Source of the DNA: an uncultured Candidatus Saccharibacteria bacterium
GTDB lineage: Bacteria > Patescibacteriota > Minisyncoccia > Phycocordibacterales > CAIZLB01
DNA length: 64,000 nucleotides
Direction: 5' to 3'
Assembly (NCBI GenBank): GCA_964520195.1
Contig: CAZFNX010000001.1
Coordinates: 34,421 to 98,420 of the forward strand
The number at the start of each line of letters is the position of its first letter. Within the stretch, counting starts at the first letter, position 1. Of this stretch, positions 4,590-34,651 are shown piece by piece. The notes below the pieces were generated by a model that saw only the letters and a program-made list of their open reading frames with translations, ran no database searches and was not told the origin of the DNA. A program made the position numbers and the translations under genes.

Positions 4590-5495
4590 ATGGAATCTAG
4601 TTCTACATCACCTGCTTCGCAATCTAAAAAAATTACATCCTTTGGCGTGTTATTGATTGTCTTGCTTATGGTAGCCGATATAGCTTGGAATCAGTATCAA
4701 TCATTTACGTATAGAAAAACTATTGAGACATTACAGTCCGATCATGATGCAAATGTTCGTGAGTTGGCAGAGTTGAAGGCGAGTACAACACAATCAAGTG
4801 CACTTTTGAGTGATTTGTATACTACATTGTCTAGAGTTATTGATGAAGAAAAGGCTAAAAATAAAACACTAGAAGAAAAACTTGGTTCACTTGATAAGTT
4901 AGCTAAAGCAGATCCACAACTGCTAAAAAAATACTCCAAGATCTATTTTCTTAATGAAAATTATGCACCACTGCGACTTGTAACTATTCCTACTGAATAT
5001 ACATACAATCAAAAGACAACATATGAAATACATGCTGATGTACTGTATTACTTACAATCGTTACTTACTGATGCGCGAAATGATGGTATGAATTTGCTTA
5101 TTATCTCTGCGTTTCGGTCATTTGCAACACAAGCAACAGTTAAGAATATAAATGTTGTAAAGTTTGGTACAAAAACTGCAAATCAATTTTCTGCCGAACA
5201 AGGTTTTTCTGAACATCAACTCGGAACAACTGTTGATTTCACAACATCTGCAACTAAGGACAATTTTTCAAAATTTGATGGAACACAAGAATATCAATGG
5301 CTAAAAAATAATGCATACTTATACGGTTTCGTATTATCCTATCCAAAAGGTAACAGTTATTATGCATACGAACCATGGCACTGGCGTTTTGTAGGTGTGG
5401 AGTTGGCGAAACGTATTCATGATGAAGGAAAATATTTTTATGATTATGATCAGCGAGTGTTAGATGAGTATGTGACTAAGATTTTTGATAGATAA
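4590..5495 (+). CDS. D-alanyl-D-alanine carboxypeptidase-like peptidase (M15/VanY family), membrane anchored
   Basis: N-terminal transmembrane helix and a coiled-coil linker. The C-terminal region carries VanY-like motifs (SAFRSFATQ...EHQLGTTVDF...EPWHWRF). Confidence 0.7.
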   Translation: MESSSTSPASQSKKITSFGVLLIVLLMVADIAWNQYQSFTYRKTIETLQSDHDANVRELAELKASTTQSSALLSDLYTTLSRVIDEEKAKNKTLEEKLGSLDKLAKADPQLLKKYSKIYFLNENYAPLRLVTIPTEYTYNQKTTYEIHADVLYYLQSLLTDARNDGMNLLIISAFRSFATQATVKNINVVKFGTKTANQFSAEQGFSEHQLGTTVDFTTSATKDNFSKFDGTQEYQWLKNNAYLYGFVLSYPKGNSYYAYEPWHWRFVGVELAKRIHDEGKYFYDYDQRVLDEYVTKIFDR

Positions 5496-18619: not shown

Positions 18620-19836
18620 TTATAGGTATGAAAAAGTTCCTGCAAACTTTTATAACTATAGGGGTGGTGGTTTTGATTTTTTTTATATGTCTTCGGATAT
18701 TTGCCTCTGATTCATTTCCTGAGCTTGGTCGGGTGATTGCATTTGAAGGTACAAGTACTGTGAGTACTTCAACTGCTGCAGATGTTGCTACGACTACATA
18801 TGAAGAACCAAAAAAGATTGTTCATATGAATATGCCTGATGAAGTTCGTGGTATATATGTAAGCTCGTATAGTTTTTTAAGTGATACGTTTCGAAAAAAA
18901 CTTGACTCGATGATTGACAATACAACAATAAACACTATTGTAGTCGATATTAAAGATGCTCCAGGAACTATTTTATTTGACATAGGTCTTGACTCGCCAT
19001 GTGTACAATCATTGTTAAGTAAGGAAAAGCTAGAAGAAAGGTTGGCGTATTATCAAAGTAAGGGTATATACACTGTCGCACGTATAGCTGTATTTCGTGA
19101 TGCGTGTTTTGTAAAAGAACATCCTGAACTTGCAGTTAAAGATATGCAAGGTAATCCATGGAGAGATTTTAAGGGTAACTACTGGCTATCTCCTCATCAG
19201 CAAGAGACAAAGGAGTATATTAGAGATATGGCTAAGGCGGTATATGATAGAGGGTTTGATGAAGTACAGTTTGACTATGTTCGCTATCCATCAGATGGAA
19301 ATATGAAAAATGTCGCATATCAATATATTTCAGATGTTGATGCATCTTCTACTCCTATGGTAAAGCGAAGAGCTACACTTAAAAGTTTCTTTTCGTATAT
19401 GAGATCTGAACTCACTGGTATACCTATATCAGCTGATGTATTTGGTATGGTTCTAACAAATACAGACGATTTAACTATCGGTCAACATCTTGATGATATT
19501 GCACCTTATGTAGATGCGCTTTCTGGTATGATTTATCCATCTCATTTTCCTAAACAATGGAATGGTCTACGAGATACTCATGCACAACCATATGAGACTA
19601 TCTATGATTCATCTAAGATGGGTCTTGATCGTATGACTGTGTTGTTTGGTAGTTCAACTGCTCGAAAACTTTCTCGGCCATGGTTGCAAGATTTTAGTAT
19701 TTTTGGAGTTGTATATAATGCACCGGAGGTAAAGGCTGAAATTAAGGCGCTTGATGATTTGGGTATTCATAATTTTCTCCTCTGGAATGCGTCAAATAGG
19801 TATACTCCAGGAGTATTGGATAAGTCTAGTTTTTAA
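18616..19836 (+). CDS. putative glycoside-hydrolase-like protein (GHL10/DUF4015 type), membrane anchored
   Basis: N-terminal TM helix. Motifs IRGIYVSSYSF and FDEVQFDYVRYPSDG are typical of the GHL10 family. Its start overlaps rsmI by 4 bp. Confidence 0.5.
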   Translation: MIIGMKKFLQTFITIGVVVLIFFICLRIFASDSFPELGRVIAFEGTSTVSTSTAADVATTTYEEPKKIVHMNMPDEVRGIYVSSYSFLSDTFRKKLDSMIDNTTINTIVVDIKDAPGTILFDIGLDSPCVQSLLSKEKLEERLAYYQSKGIYTVARIAVFRDACFVKEHPELAVKDMQGNPWRDFKGNYWLSPHQQETKEYIRDMAKAVYDRGFDEVQFDYVRYPSDGNMKNVAYQYISDVDASSTPMVKRRATLKSFFSYMRSELTGIPISADVFGMVLTNTDDLTIGQHLDDIAPYVDALSGMIYPSHFPKQWNGLRDTHAQPYETIYDSSKMGLDRMTVLFGSSTARKLSRPWLQDFSIFGVVYNAPEVKAEIKALDDLGIHNFLLWNASNRYTPGVLDKSSF

Positions 19837-25447: not shown

Positions 25448-25948
25448 TTGTTAATGAACATTAAAGGTAAAACAATTGTGTATATAGATATGGCAAATCT
25501 TTCTATAGAATCAAGAAAGAAAAATATCATAATTGATATGTTTTTGATGTATACTTGGCTCATTGATAAATATGTAGCAGATGAGGTGTATATATTTACA
25601 GGTTATCTTAATAAGTATAAAGAAGAGTATGATACAAATAGTAAGATTGGATATAAATATATTTTTAAAGAAGTTATCTTCAATAAAGATGAGTATAAAA
25701 TAAAGGCGAATTGCGATGTTGATATTGCTATACAGGGTACAATCGATACTATTAATCATAATCTTAATCGTGCAATTTTGATTACAAGTGACGGTGATTT
25801 TTTAAGTCTTATAAAATTTTGGCTATCAAAAATTGTAATAGTCTCTATTATATCACCAGCGAATCCTGACAAATGCTCTTACTTACTAAAAAAAAGACAA
25901 TTTACCTATAACATATTTAAATCAAATTCTTTCAAGAATTACAAATGA
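25448..25948 (+). CDS. NYN/LabA-like (PIN-like) domain protein
   Basis: VYIDMANL ... CDVDIAIQGT ... AILITSDGDFLSLI matches the NYN (PF01936) acidic-residue pattern. Embedded in a very AT-rich stretch. Confidence 0.55.
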   Translation: MLMNIKGKTIVYIDMANLSIESRKKNIIIDMFLMYTWLIDKYVADEVYIFTGYLNKYKEEYDTNSKIGYKYIFKEVIFNKDEYKIKANCDVDIAIQGTIDTINHNLNRAILITSDGDFLSLIKFWLSKIVIVSIISPANPDKCSYLLKKRQFTYNIFKSNSFKNYK

Positions 25949-27670: not shown

Positions 27671-28354
27671 TCACGCAGCTGCCTGCATGACTTTGTCCAT
27701 GTTTTGAAGAGACCACATGTGACCGTAACCTAAGGTTACAACTTTCGTTCTGAAGCTGCTACGTGCAGCAGTCAGAAATTCGGTTGTTTTCGTAGCAGTG
27801 CTGCCGATGATGCGATCGTTGGCAGCATTCACCACCACCATTTCGGTGGAAGGAGAAGCTTCGAACTTTTCCTGACGACGATACTGTCTCAGGATAGTGC
27901 TCCAGACGAACTTACCGCTGTCGGCCTGAAGATTCGGCATCATTTCTTCTGCCTCGTCGTCACTGAGAGAGAAGAGATTTTTAGCTTCACTTGGAGACAT
28001 TGCTACAGGTTTGCCTGTTAGTATTTCAACCAAGTGGGGCAATGTTGCCATAATCGTAGGATCCCACGGCATGAACTTGACTCCGGCAAGAGGGCCGGAG
28101 TTCATGAGGATGATTTTTTTAATCATCCCATCCGGGAGATGTTTCAGTGTCTCAGTAATCAGGACACAGCCTGCGCTGTGCCCAATCAGTGTTTCTACCT
28201 GAGGATTTGCTTCAATGTGGTCAATGAGCAGTTTTACTCGCTCTTCCATCGTATCCAACCCACATGGGTTGACGATGTTGAACCGATTTCCCAGTTTTTG
28301 AAAGAGTGGTCCTTGACTGTTGGCCCAAAGGCCAGGAACTAGCGTCATCTTCAA
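27671..28354 (-). CDS. alpha/beta-hydrolase fold protein (GHSAG nucleophile elbow); GC-rich, likely horizontally acquired
   Basis: GxSxG motif IGHSAGCVL. The gene and about 80 bp on each side are visibly GC-richer than the surrounding genes (by eye, not computed). Confidence 0.6.
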   Translation of the reverse strand: MKMTLVPGLWANSQGPLFQKLGNRFNIVNPCGLDTMEERVKLLIDHIEANPQVETLIGHSAGCVLITETLKHLPDGMIKKIILMNSGPLAGVKFMPWDPTIMATLPHLVEILTGKPVAMSPSEAKNLFSLSDDEAEEMMPNLQADSGKFVWSTILRQYRRQEKFEASPSTEMVVVNAANDRIIGSTATKTTEFLTAARSSFRTKVVTLGYGHMWSLQNMDKVMQAAA

Positions 28355-28566
28355 GACGTTACCTTTCTTTTGCGCGGGTATTCTACGTACCGCAAGTGAA
28401 TGTTCAGGGGTGAGGTAAGGTGTAGAAGGTCCTTAACTTGTATAGTATTATAGCATATATGTGTAATAAAAGCAAGGGTATACTCATCAAATCTTTGCAA
28501 TATATGGGTAGAAATATAAATTATTTAATATATACAATATTCATTTACATATAAATATGTTATAAT

Positions 28567-29514
28567 TTGTTACAAATGAAATTACTCATAGAGGCCATTG
28601 TTCAAAAACATGATCTAGGGGATTTCATATCTTTTGATGCGGTTAGTGAAGGGGTGCTTAATAAAAACTTTATCTTTGAAACAAGCAAAGGTAAGTTCTT
28701 CCTTAAGAACTGTCATGCGAAAACTAAGACTCGAATGAAGTTTATTAATGATGTTGAAAAATTTATGAAAACCCCAGCTGTTCCTTCGGTTGCAGCTATC
28801 TCTATTGATGAAGCAGAAGGATATATGCTCTATTCATTTGTTGAAAGCGACAGAACACATGACTATAATCTTAAAGATTATTTTAAAATGGGACAAATGC
28901 TTGGACATATTCATGCGGTGACATATGGAAAAGATATTCCAGAGAATTTAAAGCAATTTCCATATGTTGAAAGAGATCTGAAAGATATGGTTGTAGGAAT
29001 GAAAAAATATGAACAGATGTTGGAAACAAAAGAAAACAAAGATGAGGTTGATATATTATTTTTAGAATATATTCAAAAGAAACTTTCATATGCGGAAAAT
29101 TATGTCGATATACCAGAACTTGTAAATGATACATTAATGCATGGTGACTTTCATGCAGGGAACTTACTCTTCAGCAAAGACATGAGAGAAATAATTGGTG
29201 TATGTGATTGGGAAAAGGCACAATATTCCCCAAGAGTTTTAGATGTTGCACGAGCATATCTATATATTGGTTTTGGTACAAATACAGATGATATTGTTGA
29301 GTGTACTCAGATCGGGGAAGCTGTGCTTGAAGGATATAGAACAATACTACCTATATCAGATGAAGAATTTCAAAAAGGAATTAAGATTCGTATTAAATCA
29401 AATATCTTTACTCACTGGATTGAAGATAAATACTATATTGGAAAAGATGCTCGTGCAAATAAATTTATCAAAAACGGAATAATGATTTTAGATCATTTTT
29501 GTTCCATACAATAA
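28567..29514 (+). CDS. APH/ChoK/HSK2-type phosphotransferase (kinase)
   Basis: Catalytic loop HGDFHAGNLLF and the DFG-equivalent motif VCDWEKA. Family PF01636-like. Confidence 0.65.
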   Translation: MLQMKLLIEAIVQKHDLGDFISFDAVSEGVLNKNFIFETSKGKFFLKNCHAKTKTRMKFINDVEKFMKTPAVPSVAAISIDEAEGYMLYSFVESDRTHDYNLKDYFKMGQMLGHIHAVTYGKDIPENLKQFPYVERDLKDMVVGMKKYEQMLETKENKDEVDILFLEYIQKKLSYAENYVDIPELVNDTLMHGDFHAGNLLFSKDMREIIGVCDWEKAQYSPRVLDVARAYLYIGFGTNTDDIVECTQIGEAVLEGYRTILPISDEEFQKGIKIRIKSNIFTHWIEDKYYIGKDARANKFIKNGIMILDHFCSIQ

Positions 29515-29560
29515 ACCCATATACTTTCTGGTAAGGTATGGTATTATCATCATAATTTTT

Positions 29561-31123
29561 ATGCATAACGATAAACAAAAGATTATAAAAAATAAGACTC
29601 TTCCGAGGTCGATTAGATGTGTTGTGCGTATGTATCCCTCAAACCAAGTAAACAGATTGTATTATGGAGGGTTACCGCACCTTGGAAATGCTTTGTGGGG
29701 ATCTTGGAATTCTCTAGATATACAAAAGGCTTCAGAAGCATATGAAGACTATAGTCTTTCCACAAACCTTCTCATAAAAGGTTGTAAGGTGCCTACAGGG
29801 GATAAAGTTCGACTTGGAGGTGGAAGTCCTGCTCGATTTAAACCTTTCAACCAATCTCTCATTCAAATCCAGGAAACTTTGGACAATAGAATTCTTTCTG
29901 ATTATCCGCTAGCAGCAGGAGACAACACGGCAAAAGAATCTATTATCAAATATTTTAACGAGAGATATTCAAAAGAAATCCAGAAGAATAATATTATATT
30001 TGCTCACTCAAGTACGCAGGCATTTGCACTGGTTATGGAGGCAATACTCGATTATGGAGACGTGGTACTCATGACAGGTCCTAGTTATGGACTATTTGCA
30101 TTTATACCTGAAAGAGTTGGAGGAAAAGTTCGGTTACTTGAATTGACCTCTCAAGATGGCTGGAAGGTTAATCCTAAAAAACTAAAGAAGCTTATAGTAG
30201 AAATTAACGAAGAGCTAAAATCAGATTACGATAAAAATCGAGGTAAATATATTTTTAGACGTTCTGACACTTCTCCAAAAGTGGCAGCGTTTGTGAATAT
30301 AAATCCTCACAATCCAACAGGAATCGTATATGGAGAAAAAGATAAATCATTATTGATGGAAATATCAAGTATCTGTAAAGATGCTGGTGTATTTGTTATT
30401 GATGATCTTGCATATAGTGGACTGGAATATGATAGAAAAAATGTAGCTCTACCTATTTGTAGTTTGAAAGGACAGTTTGATAATACAATCACTTTGTACA
30501 CTCTTTCAAAAAGTTATGGGCTTGCTGGACTTCGGGCCGGAATGGTTATTTCTAATGAAATCGTTAGTTCACTAATCAGAGATAGAATTTTTCAGAGCTT
30601 TGACTCGTTATCTATTTTACAGTCGTCAGCAATAAGTGCTGCGTTTTTACCTGGAAAGAAAGCAGAGAGGGAAAGAGAAGAGTATTTTACATATACAACA
30701 AAAGAATATAACAATAGATATGTTTTTGTGAAATCTATAGTAGAGGGTGTGCAAAATCTTGATAAATCAGAGAAAACTCTATTGGATAAAATCATAAAAG
30801 AAAATAATCTAAAAATAGATTTTCATACGCATGTAAACGGAATTAAGGATATTAAAATCATTCTCAAGCCTGAATCAGGATTCTTCTTATTGCTGGATTT
30901 AACAGGACTTATTGGTAAAAGATATAAGAAATTTAAAATTATTGATGAAAGAACTCTACTTCAATTTCTATATACATCAGAAAACGTGAAGACGCTTACC
31001 GGTAAGGCTTTCTGCTGGTTGGACGAAAGCAAACTTGTGATTCGAGTAACTACAGCTTTTGATTACGAAGGTTTGTTGAAAAACTTCTTAAGATTTAAGT
31101 CATCTATCGAGTCACTCCAATGA
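29561..31123 (+). CDS. PLP-dependent aminotransferase class I/II with ~100-aa N-terminal extension
   Basis: NINPHNPTG (NPxNPTG) and the PLP-lysine motif LSKSYGLAGLRAG. Confidence 0.8.
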   Translation: MHNDKQKIIKNKTLPRSIRCVVRMYPSNQVNRLYYGGLPHLGNALWGSWNSLDIQKASEAYEDYSLSTNLLIKGCKVPTGDKVRLGGGSPARFKPFNQSLIQIQETLDNRILSDYPLAAGDNTAKESIIKYFNERYSKEIQKNNIIFAHSSTQAFALVMEAILDYGDVVLMTGPSYGLFAFIPERVGGKVRLLELTSQDGWKVNPKKLKKLIVEINEELKSDYDKNRGKYIFRRSDTSPKVAAFVNINPHNPTGIVYGEKDKSLLMEISSICKDAGVFVIDDLAYSGLEYDRKNVALPICSLKGQFDNTITLYTLSKSYGLAGLRAGMVISNEIVSSLIRDRIFQSFDSLSILQSSAISAAFLPGKKAEREREEYFTYTTKEYNNRYVFVKSIVEGVQNLDKSEKTLLDKIIKENNLKIDFHTHVNGIKDIKIILKPESGFFLLLDLTGLIGKRYKKFKIIDERTLLQFLYTSENVKTLTGKAFCWLDESKLVIRVTTAFDYEGLLKNFLRFKSSIESLQ

Positions 31124-32007
31124 AAATATTTATAGCTTCATCTGAAAATCATGTCGGAAAAATCCAAGAAGATATTTACCTACGTGATATGTTTATATCT
31201 AAGGTGTGTGAATCTGAAATTCTTACTCTAAAAAATATTTTGAATATTGCACAGACAGGTGATACAGTGATACTAAAAAGCATTTGGGGATACCATTTAA
31301 ATCCCGAAGAATTTCTTTCCCAAGTATCTGCTCTTACGTCTAAAAATGTTAGGTTAATAAATAATCTCCAATTTATTTTATGGAATATAGATAAATATCA
31401 GTATCTTAATGATATTAAAACTCTTGGAGTAGTTCCAACTAAATTATTATTAATCAAAGATACAGATGTTGCTTCGAATTTAGTTTCTGAATTGGGTAAA
31501 GATTTAGATGAAAACCCATTAGTTATTAAGCCTAATATATCTGCGAGTGGTTATTTAACATATTTATATGATGTTGAAAAAGATAATACAGATATTATTG
31601 CTTCACTCTTAGAGTATAAGCATCTTGATTTTATAACTCAACCATTCAGAGATTCTATTACCGAAGGAGAAATATCTGTCATTATAATTAATGGTAAAGC
31701 TTTGTATGGAATAAAAAGGTTTCCAGGAGTTTTTGTTAATAAAAGAAATCCGGATTTTATACATATGAATAATATTCCTGATGTCATACATGATAAACTC
31801 AAGAGGATAGAAGAATATTTTATTCAAAAATTTAATAGACTGCCAGGTATTTGTAGGGTTGATTTTCTAAGGTTTCAGGATACGTATGAGATTTCTGAGA
31901 TTGAACTAATTGATCCTGACTTATTTTTTCGCCATATACCAGAAGAGGTTAGAAAAGAGGCGCTTCTCCAGTTTTATGCTATGATAGAAACTAATAACAA
32001 TAATTAA
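31120..32007 (+). CDS. ATP-grasp-like ligase (RimK/GshB-like), translationally coupled (ATGA overlap) to the aminotransferase
   Basis: PLVIKPNISASGYL central motif and a C-terminal RVDFLRF...EIELIDPD motif of ATP-grasp type. Weak overall similarity. Confidence 0.45.
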   Translation: MKIFIASSENHVGKIQEDIYLRDMFISKVCESEILTLKNILNIAQTGDTVILKSIWGYHLNPEEFLSQVSALTSKNVRLINNLQFILWNIDKYQYLNDIKTLGVVPTKLLLIKDTDVASNLVSELGKDLDENPLVIKPNISASGYLTYLYDVEKDNTDIIASLLEYKHLDFITQPFRDSITEGEISVIIINGKALYGIKRFPGVFVNKRNPDFIHMNNIPDVIHDKLKRIEEYFIQKFNRLPGICRVDFLRFQDTYEISEIELIDPDLFFRHIPEEVRKEALLQFYAMIETNNNN

Positions 32008-32024
32008 TATATTTACTACATTTT

Positions 32025-32474
32025 ATGTATAGAAAAGGCGTTTCAGCACTCATTATAAATCCAAAGGGTAAATTCCTTATTGTGAACCTAAACTCGTTTG
32101 AGGAACAATTTTATGCTATTCCAGGGGGTGGTGTAGAGGAAGGTGAAAGTCTTGAAGAAGCAGCTTACCGAGAAGTAAAGGAAGAGCTTGGTATTGATGC
32201 AAAATCTCTTGAATTAATCGGAAAAGGTGAGACTCCTCTCCAATTTACTTTTAAAACACCTAAAGTTAAAAACGGAGTTGAAATCATCGGATCAGAACGA
32301 CATTTTTTTGGATTTAAGTTCATAGGTGATGATAATGAAATTAAACTTCAAGAAGATGAAGTAAGAGCATACAAATGGGTTCCATTTGTAGAACTGGATA
32401 AATTCTTACTTTTCGATAATCAACTCGCAGAGACTTCAGAAAAATTGGTAGAGCTATTTCCTCAATTTAAATAA
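32025..32474 (+). CDS. NUDIX hydrolase
   Basis: Nudix box GGGVEEGESLEEAAYREVKEELGI. Confidence 0.8.
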   Translation: MYRKGVSALIINPKGKFLIVNLNSFEEQFYAIPGGGVEEGESLEEAAYREVKEELGIDAKSLELIGKGETPLQFTFKTPKVKNGVEIIGSERHFFGFKFIGDDNEIKLQEDEVRAYKWVPFVELDKFLLFDNQLAETSEKLVELFPQFK

Positions 32475-32477
32475 GAT

Positions 32478-33707
32478 ATGATAAAACCAACACTTCTTTT
32501 TGTGGAAGAGGTTGAAAACACACTCACAAATAAAGTCACTTCAAATGAAACTATTAATGTAGTTCTGCTTCGATTTAAGCAGAATATGTTTTTTACTGAT
32601 GGACATTTACACAAAACATCTCATTTGCCGTGTTTTATGCTGGATAAAGAACAGCCATTACATGAAGAAGTATTGAGGTTCGAAACTTTTTGCATTGAAC
32701 ATGATATATCAATTAATTATTTTTACAATGACTCTGAATATAATCAAGAATTCATCCAAAGATTTGCATCAGAACTTAAGATACCTGGTTCTTTAAATGA
32801 ATACCAAGCACGTTGTGTTAGAGACAAAGCGGTAATGAAGGATATGCTTCAAAAAATTGGGTATAAGACCATGCAGTACAATGAACTATCTTCTCTGGAG
32901 GATGTGATATCGTTCTCGGAGAAGTATGGGGGATTTCCAGTAATTGTAAAATGGAGAAAGGGACTTTCATCAAAAGAGGTATATAAAATAGAGGATATTA
33001 ATCAACTGAAAGAATTACATTTAGATTATTCTTCAGGACGTTTTATTGCTGAAACATTTAATCCGTATTTAATATGGTGCATAGATTCACTGATTCAGGA
33101 TGGAAAAGTGGTTGGAACTTTCTATACATGGTTACCATATACAAACTTAAGCTTTGCAGAAAAGAAAGAGAAATTTGCTCAGATAACTGTAAGTGAATCT
33201 CCTACAGAAATTAAATTTGATGGAAATAAAGTAATTCAAGATATCGTAGATGAACTTGAGTTGAAGAACGGATATATACACTTAGAGGCTTTTGTTGATC
33301 CAGATGGTCAACCGACGATTTGTGAATTTGCATGGAGAACTCCAGGTGAGCATATGTTGCTGAATCATAGTAAGGCTTTTAATATTGATGTATATAACTT
33401 ATTAACAGAGATAGTTGTTGAAAGAAAAATCCAACCATTAAGTCTTAAAGGTGAAAAATGTGTAGGAGATATGTTTCTTCCTCTGGTTGCAGGTGAGGTA
33501 ACTATGATAACTCCGTTTTCTGTACTGAAAGATTTTGAGGGAGTCATTGATGGTGATGTTTATTATAAAGTAGGGGATAAGGTTGAATCAAAGAGACAAT
33601 ATACAAATTGTTCTGGATGGCTGCAGATTGAGGGAGATACAAAAGAAGAAGTTTTAAATCGAATGCTAAAAGTGTATGAAAAGTTTGAAATTCAAACAGA
33701 AGAGTAG
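32478..33707 (+). CDS. ATP-grasp enzyme, L-amino-acid-ligase-like
   Basis: GGFPVIVKWRKGLSSKEV (ATP-binding B-loop region) and GYIHLEAFVDPDGQPTICEFAWRTPGE (ATP-grasp E.N.R.GG-type motif). Confidence 0.6.
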   Translation: MIKPTLLFVEEVENTLTNKVTSNETINVVLLRFKQNMFFTDGHLHKTSHLPCFMLDKEQPLHEEVLRFETFCIEHDISINYFYNDSEYNQEFIQRFASELKIPGSLNEYQARCVRDKAVMKDMLQKIGYKTMQYNELSSLEDVISFSEKYGGFPVIVKWRKGLSSKEVYKIEDINQLKELHLDYSSGRFIAETFNPYLIWCIDSLIQDGKVVGTFYTWLPYTNLSFAEKKEKFAQITVSESPTEIKFDGNKVIQDIVDELELKNGYIHLEAFVDPDGQPTICEFAWRTPGEHMLLNHSKAFNIDVYNLLTEIVVERKIQPLSLKGEKCVGDMFLPLVAGEVTMITPFSVLKDFEGVIDGDVYYKVGDKVESKRQYTNCSGWLQIEGDTKEEVLNRMLKVYEKFEIQTEE

Positions 33708-33762
33708 TAAACTTGATTAATTAATATAAGCGTGGTACTTTAAATACAAAGAACCTTAACTT

Positions 33763-34422
33763 ATGAAAGATTTTACTCACCCTGTTCCTGAGCAGTATCA
33801 CGAGATGCTGTTCATTGGATACAAGAACAGTAGAGGGCATTTGATTGACTTCAAAGTTCCACCAGTTGTTGTTGATTCGGTAAGGTCAATCGATGAGTGT
33901 AGAAGCATTGTCCTTGCTGAACATATCAATATCAAGAGTCTTCCTTTCGATTATCAACAATCTAAGTGTTTCTTGATTGTAAGACCTACCGCTCTTCCTT
34001 ACAGATTCTATGTTAGAGACTTACTACTTGAATTAGGATTGAAGCTTAGTGATGAATTTGGGCTAGATAACTTCATGTCATTGGCTGATGTGCTGTATCA
34101 AGTTGATCTTGAAAAAGCATACCACTGGAAATGGAGAATCATAGTCAATACGCTTCATGAATCTGGAGCTCAAGACCAAAATAGAGCGCATGTGTTTCTG
34201 TTCGAAAGTGGTGATCAAGCAATCTGCGACAAAGTGATGATGCTGAAGAAAAAGATTCGTGTCGACTTGGGTGAACTACCTGTTGTTGTAAAACATAACG
34301 GTAAAGCAGTGCTTGCTCTTGGACTACATCACCTTCACTCGCCAGACATGAAAGACATCGCTTTGGAATTTAATGCAATAATGCATGCAAAAAATAAAAC
34401 GTCAGTATTTTCTGAGGTCTAA
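33763..34422 (+). CDS. hypothetical protein (219 aa), last gene of the ligase locus
   Basis: ORF with moderately elevated GC. No recognisable motif. Confidence 0.35.
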   Translation: MKDFTHPVPEQYHEMLFIGYKNSRGHLIDFKVPPVVVDSVRSIDECRSIVLAEHINIKSLPFDYQQSKCFLIVRPTALPYRFYVRDLLLELGLKLSDEFGLDNFMSLADVLYQVDLEKAYHWKWRIIVNTLHESGAQDQNRAHVFLFESGDQAICDKVMMLKKKIRVDLGELPVVVKHNGKAVLALGLHHLHSPDMKDIALEFNAIMHAKNKTSVFSEV

Positions 34423-34651
34423 AAGCTTCGAATCTAACCTCCCCTAGTGTAAAAGCTAGTAAGGAGGATTTTCTTTATTGATTATCTTGTGTCTCATATG
34501 GACGTAAAAGTTATATAGAAATTGTGTAGTTGTGGGGTATGTGGAGTTTATTCAATTTATATATATTTCATGCTACAATAATCCCATGCTCAGTCAACAA
34601 GCCATCCAGACAATACTTGGAATCAAAGAGAAAATATAATCTTCAAAATAC

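What the first reader, a model, noticed from the sequence alone, without database searches (positions are those of the whole stretch)
28567..34422. Compact same-strand locus of kinase, aminotransferase, two ATP-grasp ligases, NUDIX and an unknown protein: candidate small-molecule or dipeptide pathway
Six tightly packed + strand genes look like a small-molecule or peptide biosynthesis/modification pathway. They are an APH/ChoK-type kinase (HGDFHAGN...CDWEKA), a class-I aminotransferase (NPHNPTG, SKSYGLAGLRAG), a RimK-like ATP-grasp gene overlapping the aminotransferase by ATGA, a NUDIX hydrolase, an L-amino-acid-ligase-like ATP-grasp enzyme (ICEFAWRTPGE), and a 219-aa unknown protein. Aminotransferase plus two carboxylate-amine ligases is the logic used for dipeptide antibiotics such as bacilysin and dapdiamide, and for unusual peptidoglycan stem-peptide or amino-acid conjugates. 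The kinase and NUDIX could add or remove a phosphate or nucleotide handle, as in self-resistance or pro-drug logic. This content is unexpected in an otherwise minimal housekeeping genome, and the locus sits next to a GC-anomalous hydrolase gene. No precursor-peptide ORF is visible, so a graspetide is unlikely.
Basis: partly seen in the sequence, partly recalled or inferred. Interest (0 to 1): 0.7.

Follow-up and report, generated by a model that had tools for sequence, protein, structure and literature searches.

The report
Conserved aminotransferase, two-ligase, NUDIX operon
This is a real, conserved operon of ultra-small bacteria, built around an aminotransferase, two ATP-dependent amide ligases, a NUDIX hydrolase and a kinase-like protein, that probably makes an unknown amino-acid conjugate on a phosphate or nucleotide handle, and no paper found here describes it.

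Summary
The six + strand genes exist as described and form one tight operon at 28576-34422. None of them reaches the curated cut-off of any named housekeeping enzyme.

**Gene identities**
- An APH-fold kinase.
- A divergent 520-aa class I PLP aminotransferase (AT).
- An ATP-grasp enzyme whose closest relative is D-cycloserine synthetase DcsG. This is closer than RimK.
- A NUDIX hydrolase.
- A true L-amino-acid-ligase-type ATP-grasp enzyme (LAL). Its closest solved structure is 4wd3.
- The "unknown" protein, which has a nucleoside-diphosphate-kinase (NDK) fold.

**Conservation**
- About 90 related loci were compared. Gene maps of 93 were tallied.
- AT lies directly upstream of the DcsG-like gene in 69 of 70 cases, usually overlapping it.
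- LAL follows in 65 of 68 cases.
- NUDIX and an NDK-fold gene recur.
- Fusion proteins link the core genes: NUDIX+AT, AT+DcsG-like, DcsG-like+methyltransferase+NUDIX, and 2xLAL+AT.

**Distribution**
- The module is native in GC content.
- It occurs in Patescibacteria and in a large low-GC clade from gut metagenomes.
- Its partners vary: kinases, phosphatases, a nucleotidyltransferase, amino-acid importers and tailoring enzymes.

**Best reading:** a PLP plus two-ligase pathway that builds an amino-acid conjugate on a phosphorylated or nucleotide-tagged scaffold. The product is unknown. A bacilysin-type secreted antibiotic is less likely.

The parts
28558..28566 (+). Promoter-like extended -10 element (TGTTATAAT), 9 nt upstream of the ATG at 28576. 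This is a pattern match only. It would imply a near-leaderless transcript.
   Evidence: Sequence read. It lies in the AT-rich 212-nt divergent intergenic region 28355-28566. The consensus scan also lists a weaker site at 28509-28538.
28576..29514 (+). APH/ChoK-fold small-molecule kinase. It is an accessory member of the module. Its closest named family is type II homoserine kinase, far below that family's cut-off.
   Evidence: Pfam APH E 3.4e-18. NCBIfam homoserine kinase 48.7 bits against a cut-off of 271. PDB 2ppq homoserine kinase E 2e-5. The HGDFHAGN and CDWEKA motifs are present. The gene is adjacent to the core in 10 of the 93 loci mapped: window, L009/L034, L010, L031, L037, L083, L091, L093 and L094.
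29561..31123 (+). 520-aa class I PLP-dependent aminotransferase-fold enzyme (AT). It carries an invariant ~80-aa N-terminal extension and insertions, and founds a distinct ~500-aa subfamily.
   Evidence: Pfam PF00155 at 108 bits. No NCBIfam equivalog cut-off is reached. In 16 orthologues, N251, D281/D282, Y285, K317, R325 and R495 are invariant. Orthologues are 62-86% identical. About 75 cluster representatives reach E<=1e-30. Fusions exist with NUDIX, GNAT, AG1-like and LAL-like domains.
31120..32007 (+). 295-aa DcsG-like ATP-grasp carboxylate-amine ligase (AG1). Its start overlaps the AT stop (ATGA), so the two are probably translationally coupled.
   Evidence: NCBIfam DcsG E 5e-16, 58.6 bits against a cut-off of 360. 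Profile against PDB: DcsG 6jil E 2.4e-15. The AlphaFold model has pLDDT 93. The top Foldseek hit is DcsG (TM 0.77), then LysX/ArgX, RimK, Ddl and GshB. AT lies immediately upstream in 69 of 70 loci.
32025..32474 (+). 149-aa NUDIX hydrolase with an intact Nudix box (GGGVEEGESLEEAAYREVKEELGI). It is a core member.
   Evidence: Pfam NUDIX at 86 bits. The best NCBIfam hits (RppH, NudB, NudC) are all below cut-off. In relatives it is fused to a methyltransferase, to a 2OG-oxygenase-like domain, to AG1+methyltransferase, or to AT.
32478..33707 (+). 409-aa L-amino-acid-ligase-type ATP-grasp enzyme (LAL).
   Evidence: Pfam LAL_C2 at 30.7 bits, above the 29.4 cut-off. Profile against PDB: 4wd3 L-amino acid ligase E 1.7e-14, BacD 2e-9, BL00235 1e-7. 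K158, E192, E270, E283, R287 and N296 are invariant. Orthologues are 56-67% identical.
33763..34422 (+). 219-aa protein with a nucleoside-diphosphate-kinase-like fold and a ~65-aa N-terminal extension. It alternates, locus by locus, with a divergent 140-aa NDK gene placed next to LAL.
34438..34479 (+). Weak terminator-like hairpin followed by a U-rich tract, 16 nt after the last stop codon. It marks the probable end of the operon.
   Evidence: The RNA fold is -13.4 kcal/mol with z -1.6. Sequence read. The consensus scan did not list it.

Best explanation
The six genes are one operon. It encodes a conserved metabolic module of reduced-genome bacteria, with a core of AT, the DcsG-like ATP-grasp ligase (AG1), NUDIX, LAL and an NDK-fold protein. 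In this genome an APH-fold kinase is added.

Proposed mechanism (inferred, not shown):
1. A hydroxylated precursor, either an amino acid of the Ser/Thr/homoserine type or an amino sugar, is phosphorylated by the kinase. In some lineages it is also nucleotidylated.
2. The class I PLP enzyme makes or remodels the alpha-amino acid centre. It keeps the Schiff-base Lys and the alpha-carboxylate Arg.
3. The translationally coupled DcsG-like ligase forms a first amide or C-N bond through an acyl-phosphate.
4. The LAL forms a second, dipeptide-type amide.
5. NUDIX cleaves a pyrophosphate linkage to remove or trim the phosphate or nucleotide handle. The NDK-fold protein, or P-loop kinases in other lineages, handles the nucleotide phosphates.

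The product would be a small pseudo-di- or tripeptide conjugate that carries, at least transiently, a phosphate or nucleotide. It would serve the cell itself, as a metabolite, cofactor or envelope building block, rather than being a secreted antibiotic.

Shown here: gene identities, operon structure, conservation and fusions. Inferred: substrates, order of steps and product.
For: **Operon anatomy**
- Junctions are 46 nt, a 4-nt overlap, 17 nt, 3 nt and 55 nt.

**Conservation**
- AT lies directly upstream of AG1 in 69 of 70 loci.
- LAL lies within five genes in 65 of 68.
- NUDIX is nearby in at least 51 of 68.
- An NDK-fold gene is nearby in 33 of 50.

**Fusion proteins linking all four core enzymes**
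- AG1+methyltransferase+NUDIX (L010), methyltransferase+NUDIX, and 2OG-oxygenase-like+NUDIX.
- NUDIX+AT (P0156, P0162), AT+GNAT, AT+AG1-like (P0204), and 2xLAL-like+AT (P0233, P0271).

**Catalytic residues**
- They are intact and invariant in AT, AG1 and LAL.

**Phosphate or nucleotide handle**
- NUDIX is core.
- The NDK-fold protein recurs.
- P-loop nucleoside or nucleotide kinase-like genes recur: AAA_18, AAA_28, thymidylate-kinase/dNK-like.
- A second APH kinase and a Cof-type HAD phosphatase occur.
- An NTP_transferase lies next to the NUDIX+AT fusion.

**Constraint and native composition, not a recent import**
- Against L009, AT is 62% and LAL 57% identical. AG1, the NDK-like protein and the kinase are 40-44%, like housekeeping genes at 36-46%.
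- GC is native.

**Supply side**
- A polar-amino-acid ABC importer or a Na/Ala symporter sits in the cluster in other lineages.

**Precedents**
- Nucleotidyl activation with aminotransferase-fold partners in phosphonate pathways (PMC6697681).
- The argolaphos cluster combines NUDIX, an ATP-grasp ligase, an NDK-like protein, GNAT and a nucleotidyltransferase (PMC8976061).
Against: - No substrate was identified for any enzyme.
- Every assignment is at family or fold level.
- NUDIX enzymes also hydrolyse non-nucleotide diphosphates, so the 'nucleotide handle' could be a plain pyrophosphate.
- The NDK-fold gene could be the organism's only NDK, kept nearby by inherited synteny. It is absent from the neighbourhood in about a third of loci.
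- Alignment of a catalytic His in the 219-aa protein could not be verified.
- The kinase is adjacent in only a minority of loci, so step 1 may be lineage-specific.
- The amino-sugar hints each come from one or two lineages: PIG-L in L059/L060 (one lineage) and probably in L099, where the matching 209-aa gene was not profile-scanned, and GH20 in L023.
- The E1 alpha/beta genes upstream in some loci look like ordinary pyruvate dehydrogenase and may be unrelated.
Confidence: 0.45

Rival explanations
1. One reading: a bacilysin/dapdiamide-type secreted di- or tripeptide antimetabolite. AT makes an unusual amino acid and the two ligases join it to carrier amino acids. The kinase and NUDIX serve self-resistance or pro-drug handling.
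For: - LAL's nearest solved relatives are the 4wd3 L-amino acid ligase and BacD.
- AG1's nearest relative, DcsG, makes an antibiotic.
- Tailoring enzymes vary between lineages (methyltransferase, 2OG oxygenases, radical SAM, GNAT), as in biosynthetic gene clusters.
Against: - No exporter, immunity target copy or peptidase was seen in the neighbourhoods examined. Importers occur instead.
- GC is native, and divergence differs gene by gene rather than being uniformly low as a recent transfer would give.
- The gut-clade AT family has more than 1100 clusters, with the top 120 at 67-99% identity. This is more like a lineage-wide core function.
- NUDIX is fused to biosynthetic enzymes, which does not fit a resistance role.
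Confidence: 0.15
2. Cell-envelope precursor pathway. The scaffold is an amino sugar or phospho-amine that is activated as an NDP derivative. This would follow the logic of AmgK-MurU-MupP for UDP-MurNAc salvage, LicA-LicC for CDP-choline, or PIG-L deacetylase plus ligase as in mycothiol and bacillithiol. The two ligases decorate the scaffold with amino acids before transfer to peptidoglycan, teichoic-acid-like polymers or glycans.
For: - The APH-fold kinase belongs to the fold used by anomeric sugar kinases and choline kinases (established knowledge).
- An NTP_transferase (PF00483/PF12804) and a PIG-L deacetylase lie inside the cluster in L059/L060. L099 has the same gene order, with an unscanned 209-aa gene in the PIG-L position.
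- A GH20 hexosaminidase is inserted between AG1 and NUDIX in L023.
- A Cof-type HAD phosphatase occurs.
- In L009 the cluster sits between mreBCD-PBP2 and mraZ-mraW-ftsI.
- LicC-type transferases activate phospho-amines for surface decoration (PMC6697681).
Against: - The amino-sugar genes are rare accessories, not core.
- No glycosyltransferase, flippase or LicD-type transferase is consistently adjacent.
- The AT is class I with an alpha-carboxylate Arg. It is not a DegT-type sugar aminotransferase.
- Proximity to cell-wall genes is seen clearly in only one lineage.
Confidence: 0.2
3. Salvage or alternative synthesis of an essential nucleotide-containing cofactor from imported amino acids. One example would be a CoA- or pantetheine-like route with two amide bonds, a kinase and a PLP decarboxylase or transaminase. 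This would compensate for missing canonical pathways in auxotrophic, reduced genomes.
For: - The module is confined, as far as sampled, to small low-GC, reduced-looking genomes, and is very strongly conserved.
- It makes two amide bonds and includes kinases, NUDIX, P-loop kinases with faint CoaE/dNK/NadR-type similarity, an amino-acid importer and a LysR regulator.
- A D-2-hydroxyacid dehydrogenase is adjacent in 14 loci.
Against: - No specific cofactor enzyme signature was found: none for PanB/C, CoaBC, NadD/E or FolC.
- The similarities to CoaE and NadR are at noise level.
- Presence of the module could not be compared with absence of canonical cofactor genes using these tools.
Confidence: 0.1
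4. Protein-modifying system. The RimK/LysX-like ligase adds amino acids to the C-terminus of a ribosomal or carrier protein, as RimK does on S6 or LysX on LysW. The other genes supply or trim the added residues.
For: After DcsG, the next structural neighbours of AG1 are LysX/ArgX and RimK.
Against: - No LysW-like or acidic-tailed small ORF lies in or next to the operon, and the gaps are too small to hold one.
- AG1 groups with DcsG, a small-molecule enzyme, by sequence profile, and not with RimK: 25 bits against a cut-off of 143.
- LAL is a free-amino-acid ligase type.
Confidence: 0.04
5. Ordinary housekeeping genes that merely happen to lie together: Ddl, PurK/PurT, a CPS fragment, AspAT, RppH, Ndk.
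For: Weak NCBIfam hits to PurK, Ddl, a CPS-like family, RppH and aspartate aminotransferase.
Against: - All these hits are far below the curated cut-offs: PurK 27.5 against 318, Ddl 17 against 246, RppH 55 against 116, archaeal AspAT 82 against 550.
- The block is syntenic across about 90 loci and its genes are fused to each other in several lineages.
Confidence: 0.02

Closest known systems
D-cycloserine synthetase DcsG (PDB 6JIL; Pfam PF27100 DcsG_N; NCBIfam NF058666)
   Same: It is the closest relative of the 295-aa ATP-grasp protein by profile (E 2.4e-15, aligned over almost the full length) and by fold (Foldseek E 1.8e-17, TM 0.77). Relatives of the window protein carry the DcsG_N Pfam domain. 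Both are about 300 aa. DcsG is known to act on a small molecule, and the same is inferred for the window protein.
   Different: Identity is only about 17%. The score is 58.6 bits against the 360-bit equivalog cut-off. None of the other dcs genes was recognised in the loci examined: no arginase, N-hydroxylase, CysK-like synthase, racemase or O-acetyltransferase. Here the partner is always a class I aminotransferase.
L-amino acid ligases: the 4wd3 L-amino acid ligase (RizA, the rhizocticin ligase, by my recollection), BacD/YwfE (bacilysin) and BL00235
   Same: The 409-aa protein has the ATP-grasp core plus the LAL_C2 domain. With a family profile it matches 4wd3 at E 1.7e-14, BacD at 2e-9 and BL00235 at 1e-7. 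AT plus LAL is the pairing used in bacilysin (BacF and BacD, from established knowledge).
   Different: No prephenate-pathway gene was recognised in the loci examined, and no PEP-mutase signature motif was found in any locus ORF. There is no exporter. The family is 56-67% identical across Patescibacteria, which points to an unusually constrained substrate.
Nucleotidyl-activated phosphonate and phosphonopeptide pathways (argolaphos alp cluster, FR-900098 FrbH, PntC-AEPT fusions)
   Same: The toolbox is the same. The alp cluster lists a NUDIX hydrolase (AlpB), an ATP-grasp ligase (AlpC), an NDK-like protein (AlpE), GNAT proteins and a nucleotidyltransferase (AlpM) (PMC8976061). Nucleotidyltransferase fused to an aminotransferase-fold PLP enzyme is established there (PMC6697681). 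This parallels the NUDIX+AT fusion and the adjacent NTP_transferase found here.
   Different: No PEP-mutase signature motif was found in any locus ORF, and no PEP-mutase family appeared in the profile scans that were run on part of them. Any handle would therefore sit on a phosphate ester, not a phosphonate. The organisms are Patescibacteria and an unidentified low-GC gut lineage, not actinomycetes.
Peptidyl-nucleoside pathways with cryptic phosphorylation (pseudouridimycin; puromycin)
   Same: Pseudouridimycin uses an aminotransferase (PumG), the ATP-grasp ligase PumK plus a second attachment enzyme PumM, and an adenylate-kinase homologue (PMC10127198). Puromycin uses a NUDIX hydrolase (Pur7), an aminotransferase and methyltransferases (PMC11641026).
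   Different: PumG/SapH is a DAPA-synthase-like fold-type I aminotransferase, related to 7,8-diaminopelargonic acid synthase, and so of a different subgroup from the class I enzyme here. Pur6 is not an ATP-grasp enzyme. No nucleoside-forming enzyme was found here: no pseudouridine synthase and no oxidoreductase.
AmgK-MurU-MupP (MurNAc salvage), LicA-LicC (CDP-choline) and PIG-L deacetylase plus ligase (mycothiol, bacillithiol), cited from established knowledge
   Same: The same families occur as accessories: an APH-fold kinase, a small NTP_transferase, a HAD phosphatase and a PIG-L deacetylase.
   Different: They are accessory and scattered over lineages. None of the defining enzymes (MurU, LicD, MshA/BshA, MshC/BshC) was identified. 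The core here is AT plus two ATP-grasp ligases, which those systems lack.

Membership tests
L-amino acid ligase (ATP-grasp with LAL_C2 domain) | The LAL_C2 domain reaches Pfam's gathering score, and solved LALs are the best-matching structures. | tested here: met
   PF18603 scores 30.7 bits against a cut-off of 29.4. The profile matches 4wd3 at E 1.7e-14, BacD at 2e-9 and BL00235 at 1e-7, with no other family above them.
L-amino acid ligase (ATP-grasp with LAL_C2 domain) | ATP-grasp catalytic residues are conserved: the ATP-binding Lys, the Mg-binding acidic residues and the Arg of the E-x-x-x-R-x-x-G segment. | tested here: met
   K158, E192, E270, E283, R287, G290 and N296 are invariant in 12-16 orthologues, including the 32-43% identical ones.
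L-amino acid ligase (ATP-grasp with LAL_C2 domain) | ATP-dependent condensation of two free L-amino acids into a dipeptide. | not testable with these tools
   This needs an enzyme assay.
D-cycloserine synthetase DcsG (equivalog) | Sequence score at or above the NCBIfam equivalog cut-off. | tested here: not met
   58.6 bits against a cut-off of 360. It is a homologue of the DcsG_N family, not a DcsG orthologue.
D-cycloserine synthetase DcsG (equivalog) | Context of dcs genes: arginase, N-hydroxylase, O-ureidoserine synthase and racemase. | tested here: not met
   None of these appeared in the precomputed Pfam lists or the profile scans of the loci examined. Many neighbouring genes were not scanned.
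DcsG_N-type ATP-grasp family (PF27100) | Homology over the full length to DcsG, with DcsG as the best structural match. | tested here: met
   The profile E-value is 2.4e-15 over positions 23-282. The top Foldseek hit is 6jil at TM 0.77. PF27100 is recorded on many orthologues.
Class I/II aminotransferase (PF00155) | Domain above the gathering score, with a conserved PLP Lys, Asp, Asn, Tyr, phosphate Arg and alpha-carboxylate Arg. | tested here: met
   108 bits against a cut-off of 19.7. N251, D281/D282, Y285, K317, R325 and R495 are invariant. Mapping these residues onto the AspAT roles is my reading of the motifs.
Any named aminotransferase equivalog (AspAT, AlaAT, DapL, HisC, GntC, VioD, PatB) | NCBIfam curated cut-off. 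| tested here: not met
   The best hit is GntC at 109 bits against 415. All 71 hits are below cut-off. PDB relatives are only generic, at E about 1e-18.
NUDIX hydrolase | NUDIX domain above cut-off with an intact Nudix box GX5EX7REUXEEXGU. | tested here: met
   86 bits against 21.1. The box GGGVEEGESLEEAAYREVKEELGI is read in the translation. No substrate-specific equivalog is reached.
Type II homoserine kinase (ThrB_alt) within the APH fold | Equivalog cut-off. | tested here: not met
   48.7 bits against 271, and 40.7 against 256. The APH domain itself is met at 66.7 bits, and the HxDxxxxN and D-W-E motifs are present.
Nucleoside diphosphate kinase (for the 219-aa protein) | NDK fold. | tested here: met
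Nucleoside diphosphate kinase (for the 219-aa protein) | Sequence membership (PF00334) and a catalytic His aligned with the NxxHGSD motif. | tested here: inconclusive
   There is no Pfam hit. hhalign against the loci's NDK family gives E 9e-5 and 60% probability, but the alignment stops before the His. The HMM against a canonical Ndk aligns only the RPTAL/KPNAV segment. An invariant HHLHSPD motif sits at the structurally expected place, but this is only my reading.
Housekeeping ATP-grasp enzymes (Ddl, PurK/PurT/PurD, CPS-like, GshB, RimK) | Curated cut-offs of the respective NCBIfam models. | tested here: not met
   PurK 27.5 against 318; Ddl 17.3 against 246; PurD 15.5 against 288; CPS-like at most 20 against at least 218; GshB 15.5 against 272; RimK family 25.3 against 143.
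Graspetide (RiPP) system | A precursor-peptide gene next to the ATP-grasp ligase. | tested here: not met
   The gaps inside the operon are 46, -4, 17, 3 and 55 nt, so they hold no small ORF. The ligases match small-molecule ligases best.
Phosphonate or phosphonopeptide gene cluster | A PEP mutase gene. | tested here: not met
   No EDK...K.NS-type motif was found in any ORF of the loci. PEP_mutase did not appear in the precomputed Pfam lists of the contigs looked up, nor in the scans run on selected neighbours.
Anti-phage defence system | A match to PADLOC models. | tested here: not met
   Only a generic NUDIX hit (PDC-S07) and a noise-level Cas6 hit were found.

The most novel reading that the evidence does not exclude
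The AT, DcsG-like ligase, NUDIX, LAL and NDK-fold module is an unrecognised, widely conserved pathway. It would make a new nucleotide- or phosphate-linked peptide-like metabolite, either a cofactor-like molecule or an envelope building block. On this reading ultra-small Patescibacteria and a large low-GC gut lineage depend on it, and the PLP enzyme and ligases work on a nucleotide-tagged intermediate as a physical complex.
Probability: 0.3. Interest if true: 0.85.

Novelty: new variant of a known kind. Interest (0 to 1): 0.62.

Why it matters
Patescibacteria and other reduced-genome bacteria keep very few biosynthetic genes, so a multi-enzyme pathway that they conserve more strongly than cell-division proteins is likely to be important for their lifestyle. 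The module is common. The DcsG-like ligase alone has 115 clusters at 90% identity, mostly from Patescibacteria, and the AT of the gut-metagenome clade has more than 1100 clusters. The literature searches found no paper on the module.

The many gene fusions give a ready-made hypothesis of consecutive steps. All the enzymes are soluble, small and easy to assay, so the product could be identified directly. If the product is an envelope or cofactor component, it would fill a gap in the metabolic models of these uncultivated organisms. It could also help to cultivate or target them.

Tried and rejected
1. Distant AG1 homologues (25-33% identity) in Gemmatimonadota, Cytophagales and Alphaproteobacteria share no context with each other or with the module, so they gave no functional lead.
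2. The PADLOC defence scan found nothing.
3. The puromycin analogy fails at the ligase, because Pur6 is not an ATP-grasp enzyme. The pseudouridimycin aminotransferase belongs to another subgroup of fold-type I aminotransferases. Both were kept only as logic-level parallels.
4. The 450-aa protein that takes LAL's place in L055 has no detectable similarity to LAL or to any Pfam family.
5. The taxon of the low-GC gut clade could not be identified. No source names were returned, and the AlphaFold-database fold library was unavailable.
7. The E1 alpha/beta genes upstream in some loci score close to genuine pyruvate dehydrogenase E1, so they were not counted as members.
8. The consensus promoter and terminator scans were uninformative in this AT-rich DNA.
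9. Literature searches combining Patescibacteria or candidate phyla radiation with ATP-grasp, aminotransferase and NUDIX found no description of this cluster.

Full report
**Observation.** The window is a 36% GC stretch dense in housekeeping genes. These include ProRS, GatB, LysRS-type and Tyr/Trp-type tRNA synthetases, FtsI, FtsZ/FtsA, DnaB, UvrA, SMC and EF-P. Relatives of its genes come from Patescibacteria, with records named Paceibacterota, Zambryskibacteria, Taylorbacteria and Parcubacteria.

The junctions are 46 nt, a 4-nt ATGA overlap, 17 nt, 3 nt and 55 nt. Upstream lies a 212-nt AT-rich divergent intergenic region with a TGTTATAAT element 9 nt before an ATG at 28576. That ATG is the start used on a same-species contig. 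Downstream lies a weak hairpin followed by a U-tract. The six genes are therefore best read as one operon, 28576-34422.

**Gene identities.**
- The first gene is an APH-fold kinase (Pfam E 3e-18). Its nearest named family is type II homoserine kinase, but at 49 bits against a cut-off of 271.
- The second is a 520-aa class I PLP enzyme (AT). It scores 108 bits on PF00155 but reaches no equivalog cut-off. Its best solved relatives are generic aminotransferases at E about 1e-18. Sixteen orthologues keep every PLP-binding residue and the C-terminal Arg that binds an alpha-carboxylate. They also keep an almost invariant 80-residue N-terminal extension.
- The third (AG1) is an ATP-grasp protein whose closest relative is D-cycloserine synthetase DcsG. 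The family profile gives E 2.4e-15. A pLDDT-93 model gives DcsG as the top Foldseek hit (TM 0.77), ahead of LysX/ArgX, RimK, Ddl and GshB. At 59 bits against 360 it is not a DcsG orthologue.
- The fourth is a NUDIX hydrolase with an intact Nudix box and no substrate-specific assignment.
- The fifth (LAL) is an L-amino-acid-ligase-type ATP-grasp enzyme. LAL_C2 is above cut-off. The profile matches 4wd3 at E 1.7e-14, BacD at 2e-9 and BL00235 at 1e-7.

The hits to PurK, Ddl, CPS-like, GshB and RimK models are all an order of magnitude below their cut-offs.

**Conservation.** Three sets of related loci were collected: a genome scan with the AG1 family (L010-L054), a metagenome scan with the LAL family (L062-L118), and look-ups of individual relatives. 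Together they give about 90 independent loci.
- AT lies immediately upstream of AG1 on the same strand in 69 of 70 cases.
- The two genes overlap by 4 nt in 39 loci and by 22 nt in 16. They are 1-2 nt apart in 13.
- LAL follows within five genes in 65 of 68 cases.
- NUDIX is detected nearby in at least 51 of 68.
- A divergent 140-aa NDK gene lies convergent to LAL in 13 loci of the first set, and upstream of AT in one more. It scores only 36 bits against the 155-bit NDK cut-off. Within that first set (L007-L038) the loci carrying it lack the 219-aa protein nearby, and the loci with the 219-aa protein lack it. An NDK-fold protein is thus a fifth recurrent member, found near the core in 33 of 50 loci.
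- The APH kinase is adjacent only in a minority: the window, L009/L034, L010, L031, L037, L083, L091, L093 and L094.

**Fusions.** Gene fusions tie the core together.
- L010, the closest relative, has AG1+methyltransferase+NUDIX in one 635-aa protein.
- Other loci have methyltransferase+NUDIX and 2OG-oxygenase-like+NUDIX.
- In the wider AT family there are NUDIX+AT (P0156, P0162), AT+GNAT (P0157), AT+AG1-like (P0204) and two LAL-like domains+AT (P0233, P0271).

NUDIX is therefore an enzyme of the pathway, not a bystander.

**Evolution.** The locus has native composition (GC 0.29-0.39). The alpha/beta-hydrolase gene next to it is foreign (GC 0.48, GC3 0.51), and among the loci it matched only L002, a same-species contig.

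Against L009, the housekeeping proteins MraZ, MraW, FtsI and the class II tRNA synthetase are 36-46% identical. AG1, the NDK-like protein and the kinase are 40-44%, while AT is 62% and LAL 57%. This gene-by-gene pattern fits vertical descent with very strong constraint on AT and LAL better than a recent transfer of the whole block.

The AT belongs to a distinct family of about 500-aa class I enzymes, with about 75 cluster representatives at E<=1e-30. Members at 34-42% identity sit in the same module in other lineages.
- L055 has AT, AG1, an unknown 450-aa protein, a methyltransferase, NUDIX and the NDK-like protein.
- L060 and L099 have NTP_transferase, [NUDIX+AT], PIG-L deacetylase, AT, AG1, LAL and a B12 radical-SAM enzyme. 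L060 continues with a second radical-SAM gene and a Na/Ala symporter. The L099 genes were matched to L060 by order and size only, apart from its radical-SAM gene.
- A large clade with about 26% GC comes mostly from gut metagenomes. Its cluster runs LysR, NUDIX, AT, AG1, a P-loop (AAA_28) kinase, LAL, a polar-amino-acid ABC importer, either a methyltransferase-like protein plus an AAA_18 kinase or APH + radical SAM + APH + a thymidylate-kinase/dNK-like kinase, then NUDIX x2 and a Cof-type HAD phosphatase.
- That clade's AT has more than 1100 clusters, the best 120 at 67-99% identity. Its taxon could not be determined.

**Mechanism.** Several things are shown here. There is a translationally coupled PLP enzyme and DcsG-type ligase, a second ligase of the LAL type, and a NUDIX hydrolase that evolution repeatedly fuses to these enzymes. 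The partners recurrently handle phosphates and nucleotides: the NDK fold, P-loop nucleoside/nucleotide-kinase-like proteins, APH kinases, a HAD phosphatase and an NTP_transferase. Amino-acid importers and variable tailoring enzymes also occur.

From the established chemistry of these families I infer the following.
- The AT makes or remodels an alpha-amino acid.
- Each ATP-grasp enzyme forms one amide through an acyl-phosphate.
- The intermediate carries a phosphate or nucleotide handle. Kinases or a nucleotidyltransferase install it, and NUDIX or the HAD phosphatase removes it.

The best precedents are nucleotidyl-activated phosphonate and phosphonopeptide pathways.
- The argolaphos cluster lists NUDIX, an ATP-grasp ligase, an NDK-like protein, GNAT proteins and a nucleotidyltransferase (PMC8976061).
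- Cytidylyltransferases are fused to aminotransferase-fold PLP enzymes in PntC-AEPT and FrbH (PMC6697681).
- The nearest solved relative of LAL is 4wd3, which I recall as the rhizocticin ligase RizA.

However, no PEP-mutase signature motif was found in any locus ORF. A phosphate ester or a sugar or nucleoside phosphate is therefore more likely than a phosphonate. Peptidyl-nucleoside pathways such as pseudouridimycin and puromycin share the logic but not the enzyme subfamilies.

**Rivals.**
- A secreted bacilysin-type dipeptide remains possible. It is weakened by the lack of exporters or immunity genes, the presence of importers, the native composition and the lineage-wide conservation.
- An envelope-precursor reading is a serious alternative or refinement. 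It rests on an amino sugar or phospho-amine activated as an NDP derivative and decorated with amino acids. Support comes from PIG-L, GH20, NTP_transferase, the HAD phosphatase, and the position between mre and mra genes in L009. These hints are lineage-restricted.
- Cofactor salvage and protein C-terminal modification are less supported.
- Accidental clustering of housekeeping genes is excluded.

**Novelty.** All the enzyme folds are known. The module, the AT subfamily with its N-terminal extension and the NDK-like member are not described in any paper found. I rate it a new variant of a known kind, namely an ATP-grasp/PLP small-molecule pathway with a phosphate or nucleotide handle. Its interest lies in being conserved and common in organisms that keep almost no biosynthesis.

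Noticed in passing
window 27671-28354 (- strand): This alpha/beta-hydrolase gene (Abhydrolase_6) has GC 0.48 and GC3 0.51 in a 0.36/0.25 genome. Among the loci it matched only L002, a same-species contig. It looks like a recent foreign insertion between a UPF0020 methyltransferase gene and the operon.
   Followed up: partly
window 28558-28578: The extended -10-like element TGTTATAAT ends 9 nt before the probable ATG start of the kinase gene, and there is no Shine-Dalgarno sequence. This suggests a leaderless or near-leaderless first gene.
   Followed up: no
L007:11978-12400, with orthologues in L008, L013-L019, L021, L022, L024, L029 and L031: The 140-aa 'NDK' of these Patescibacteria is very divergent: 36 bits against the 155-bit NDK cut-off, with NVIHRP in place of NxxHGSD. 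It keeps a fixed position convergent to LAL. It may not be an ordinary housekeeping Ndk.
   Followed up: partly
L056, L100-L117 (metagenome contigs, about 26% GC; L107 from human gut): A second, very abundant clade carries the module with an amino-acid ABC importer and a LysR regulator. Its AT family has more than 1100 clusters. The organism could not be named. A separate set of loci with about 42% LAL identity (L096, with L097 and L099) has a DUF285 'Mycoplasma' repeat protein and a T4SS coupling protein next to the module in L096, which hints at Bacillota/Mollicutes-like hosts for that set.
   Followed up: partly
L007:9374-10243 (- strand), with orthologues in about 10 loci: A 289-aa protein of the SCO1664 family (TIGR03843, with faint PI3/PI4-kinase similarity) is inserted on the opposite strand between NUDIX and LAL. 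It occurs in exactly the loci that lack the APH kinase, so it is a possible non-orthologous kinase replacement.
   Followed up: partly
P0193 (1085 aa) and L057/L058: More distant members of the ~500-aa AT family occur in other contexts. One is fused to a ThDP-dependent decarboxylase-type enzyme. One is fused to a GNAT. One sits beside radical-SAM and DegT genes. The AT subfamily is therefore used in several other uncharacterised pathways.
   Followed up: no
window 25448-25948: This NYN-domain gene has unusually low GC (0.25). It lies between ProRS and a SPOUT methyltransferase gene.
   Followed up: no
window 4590-5495 and 18616-19836: A VanY-type D-Ala-D-Ala carboxypeptidase gene and a DUF4015 putative glycosyl hydrolase gene sit among the housekeeping genes. 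This fits a peptidoglycan-containing envelope.
   Followed up: no
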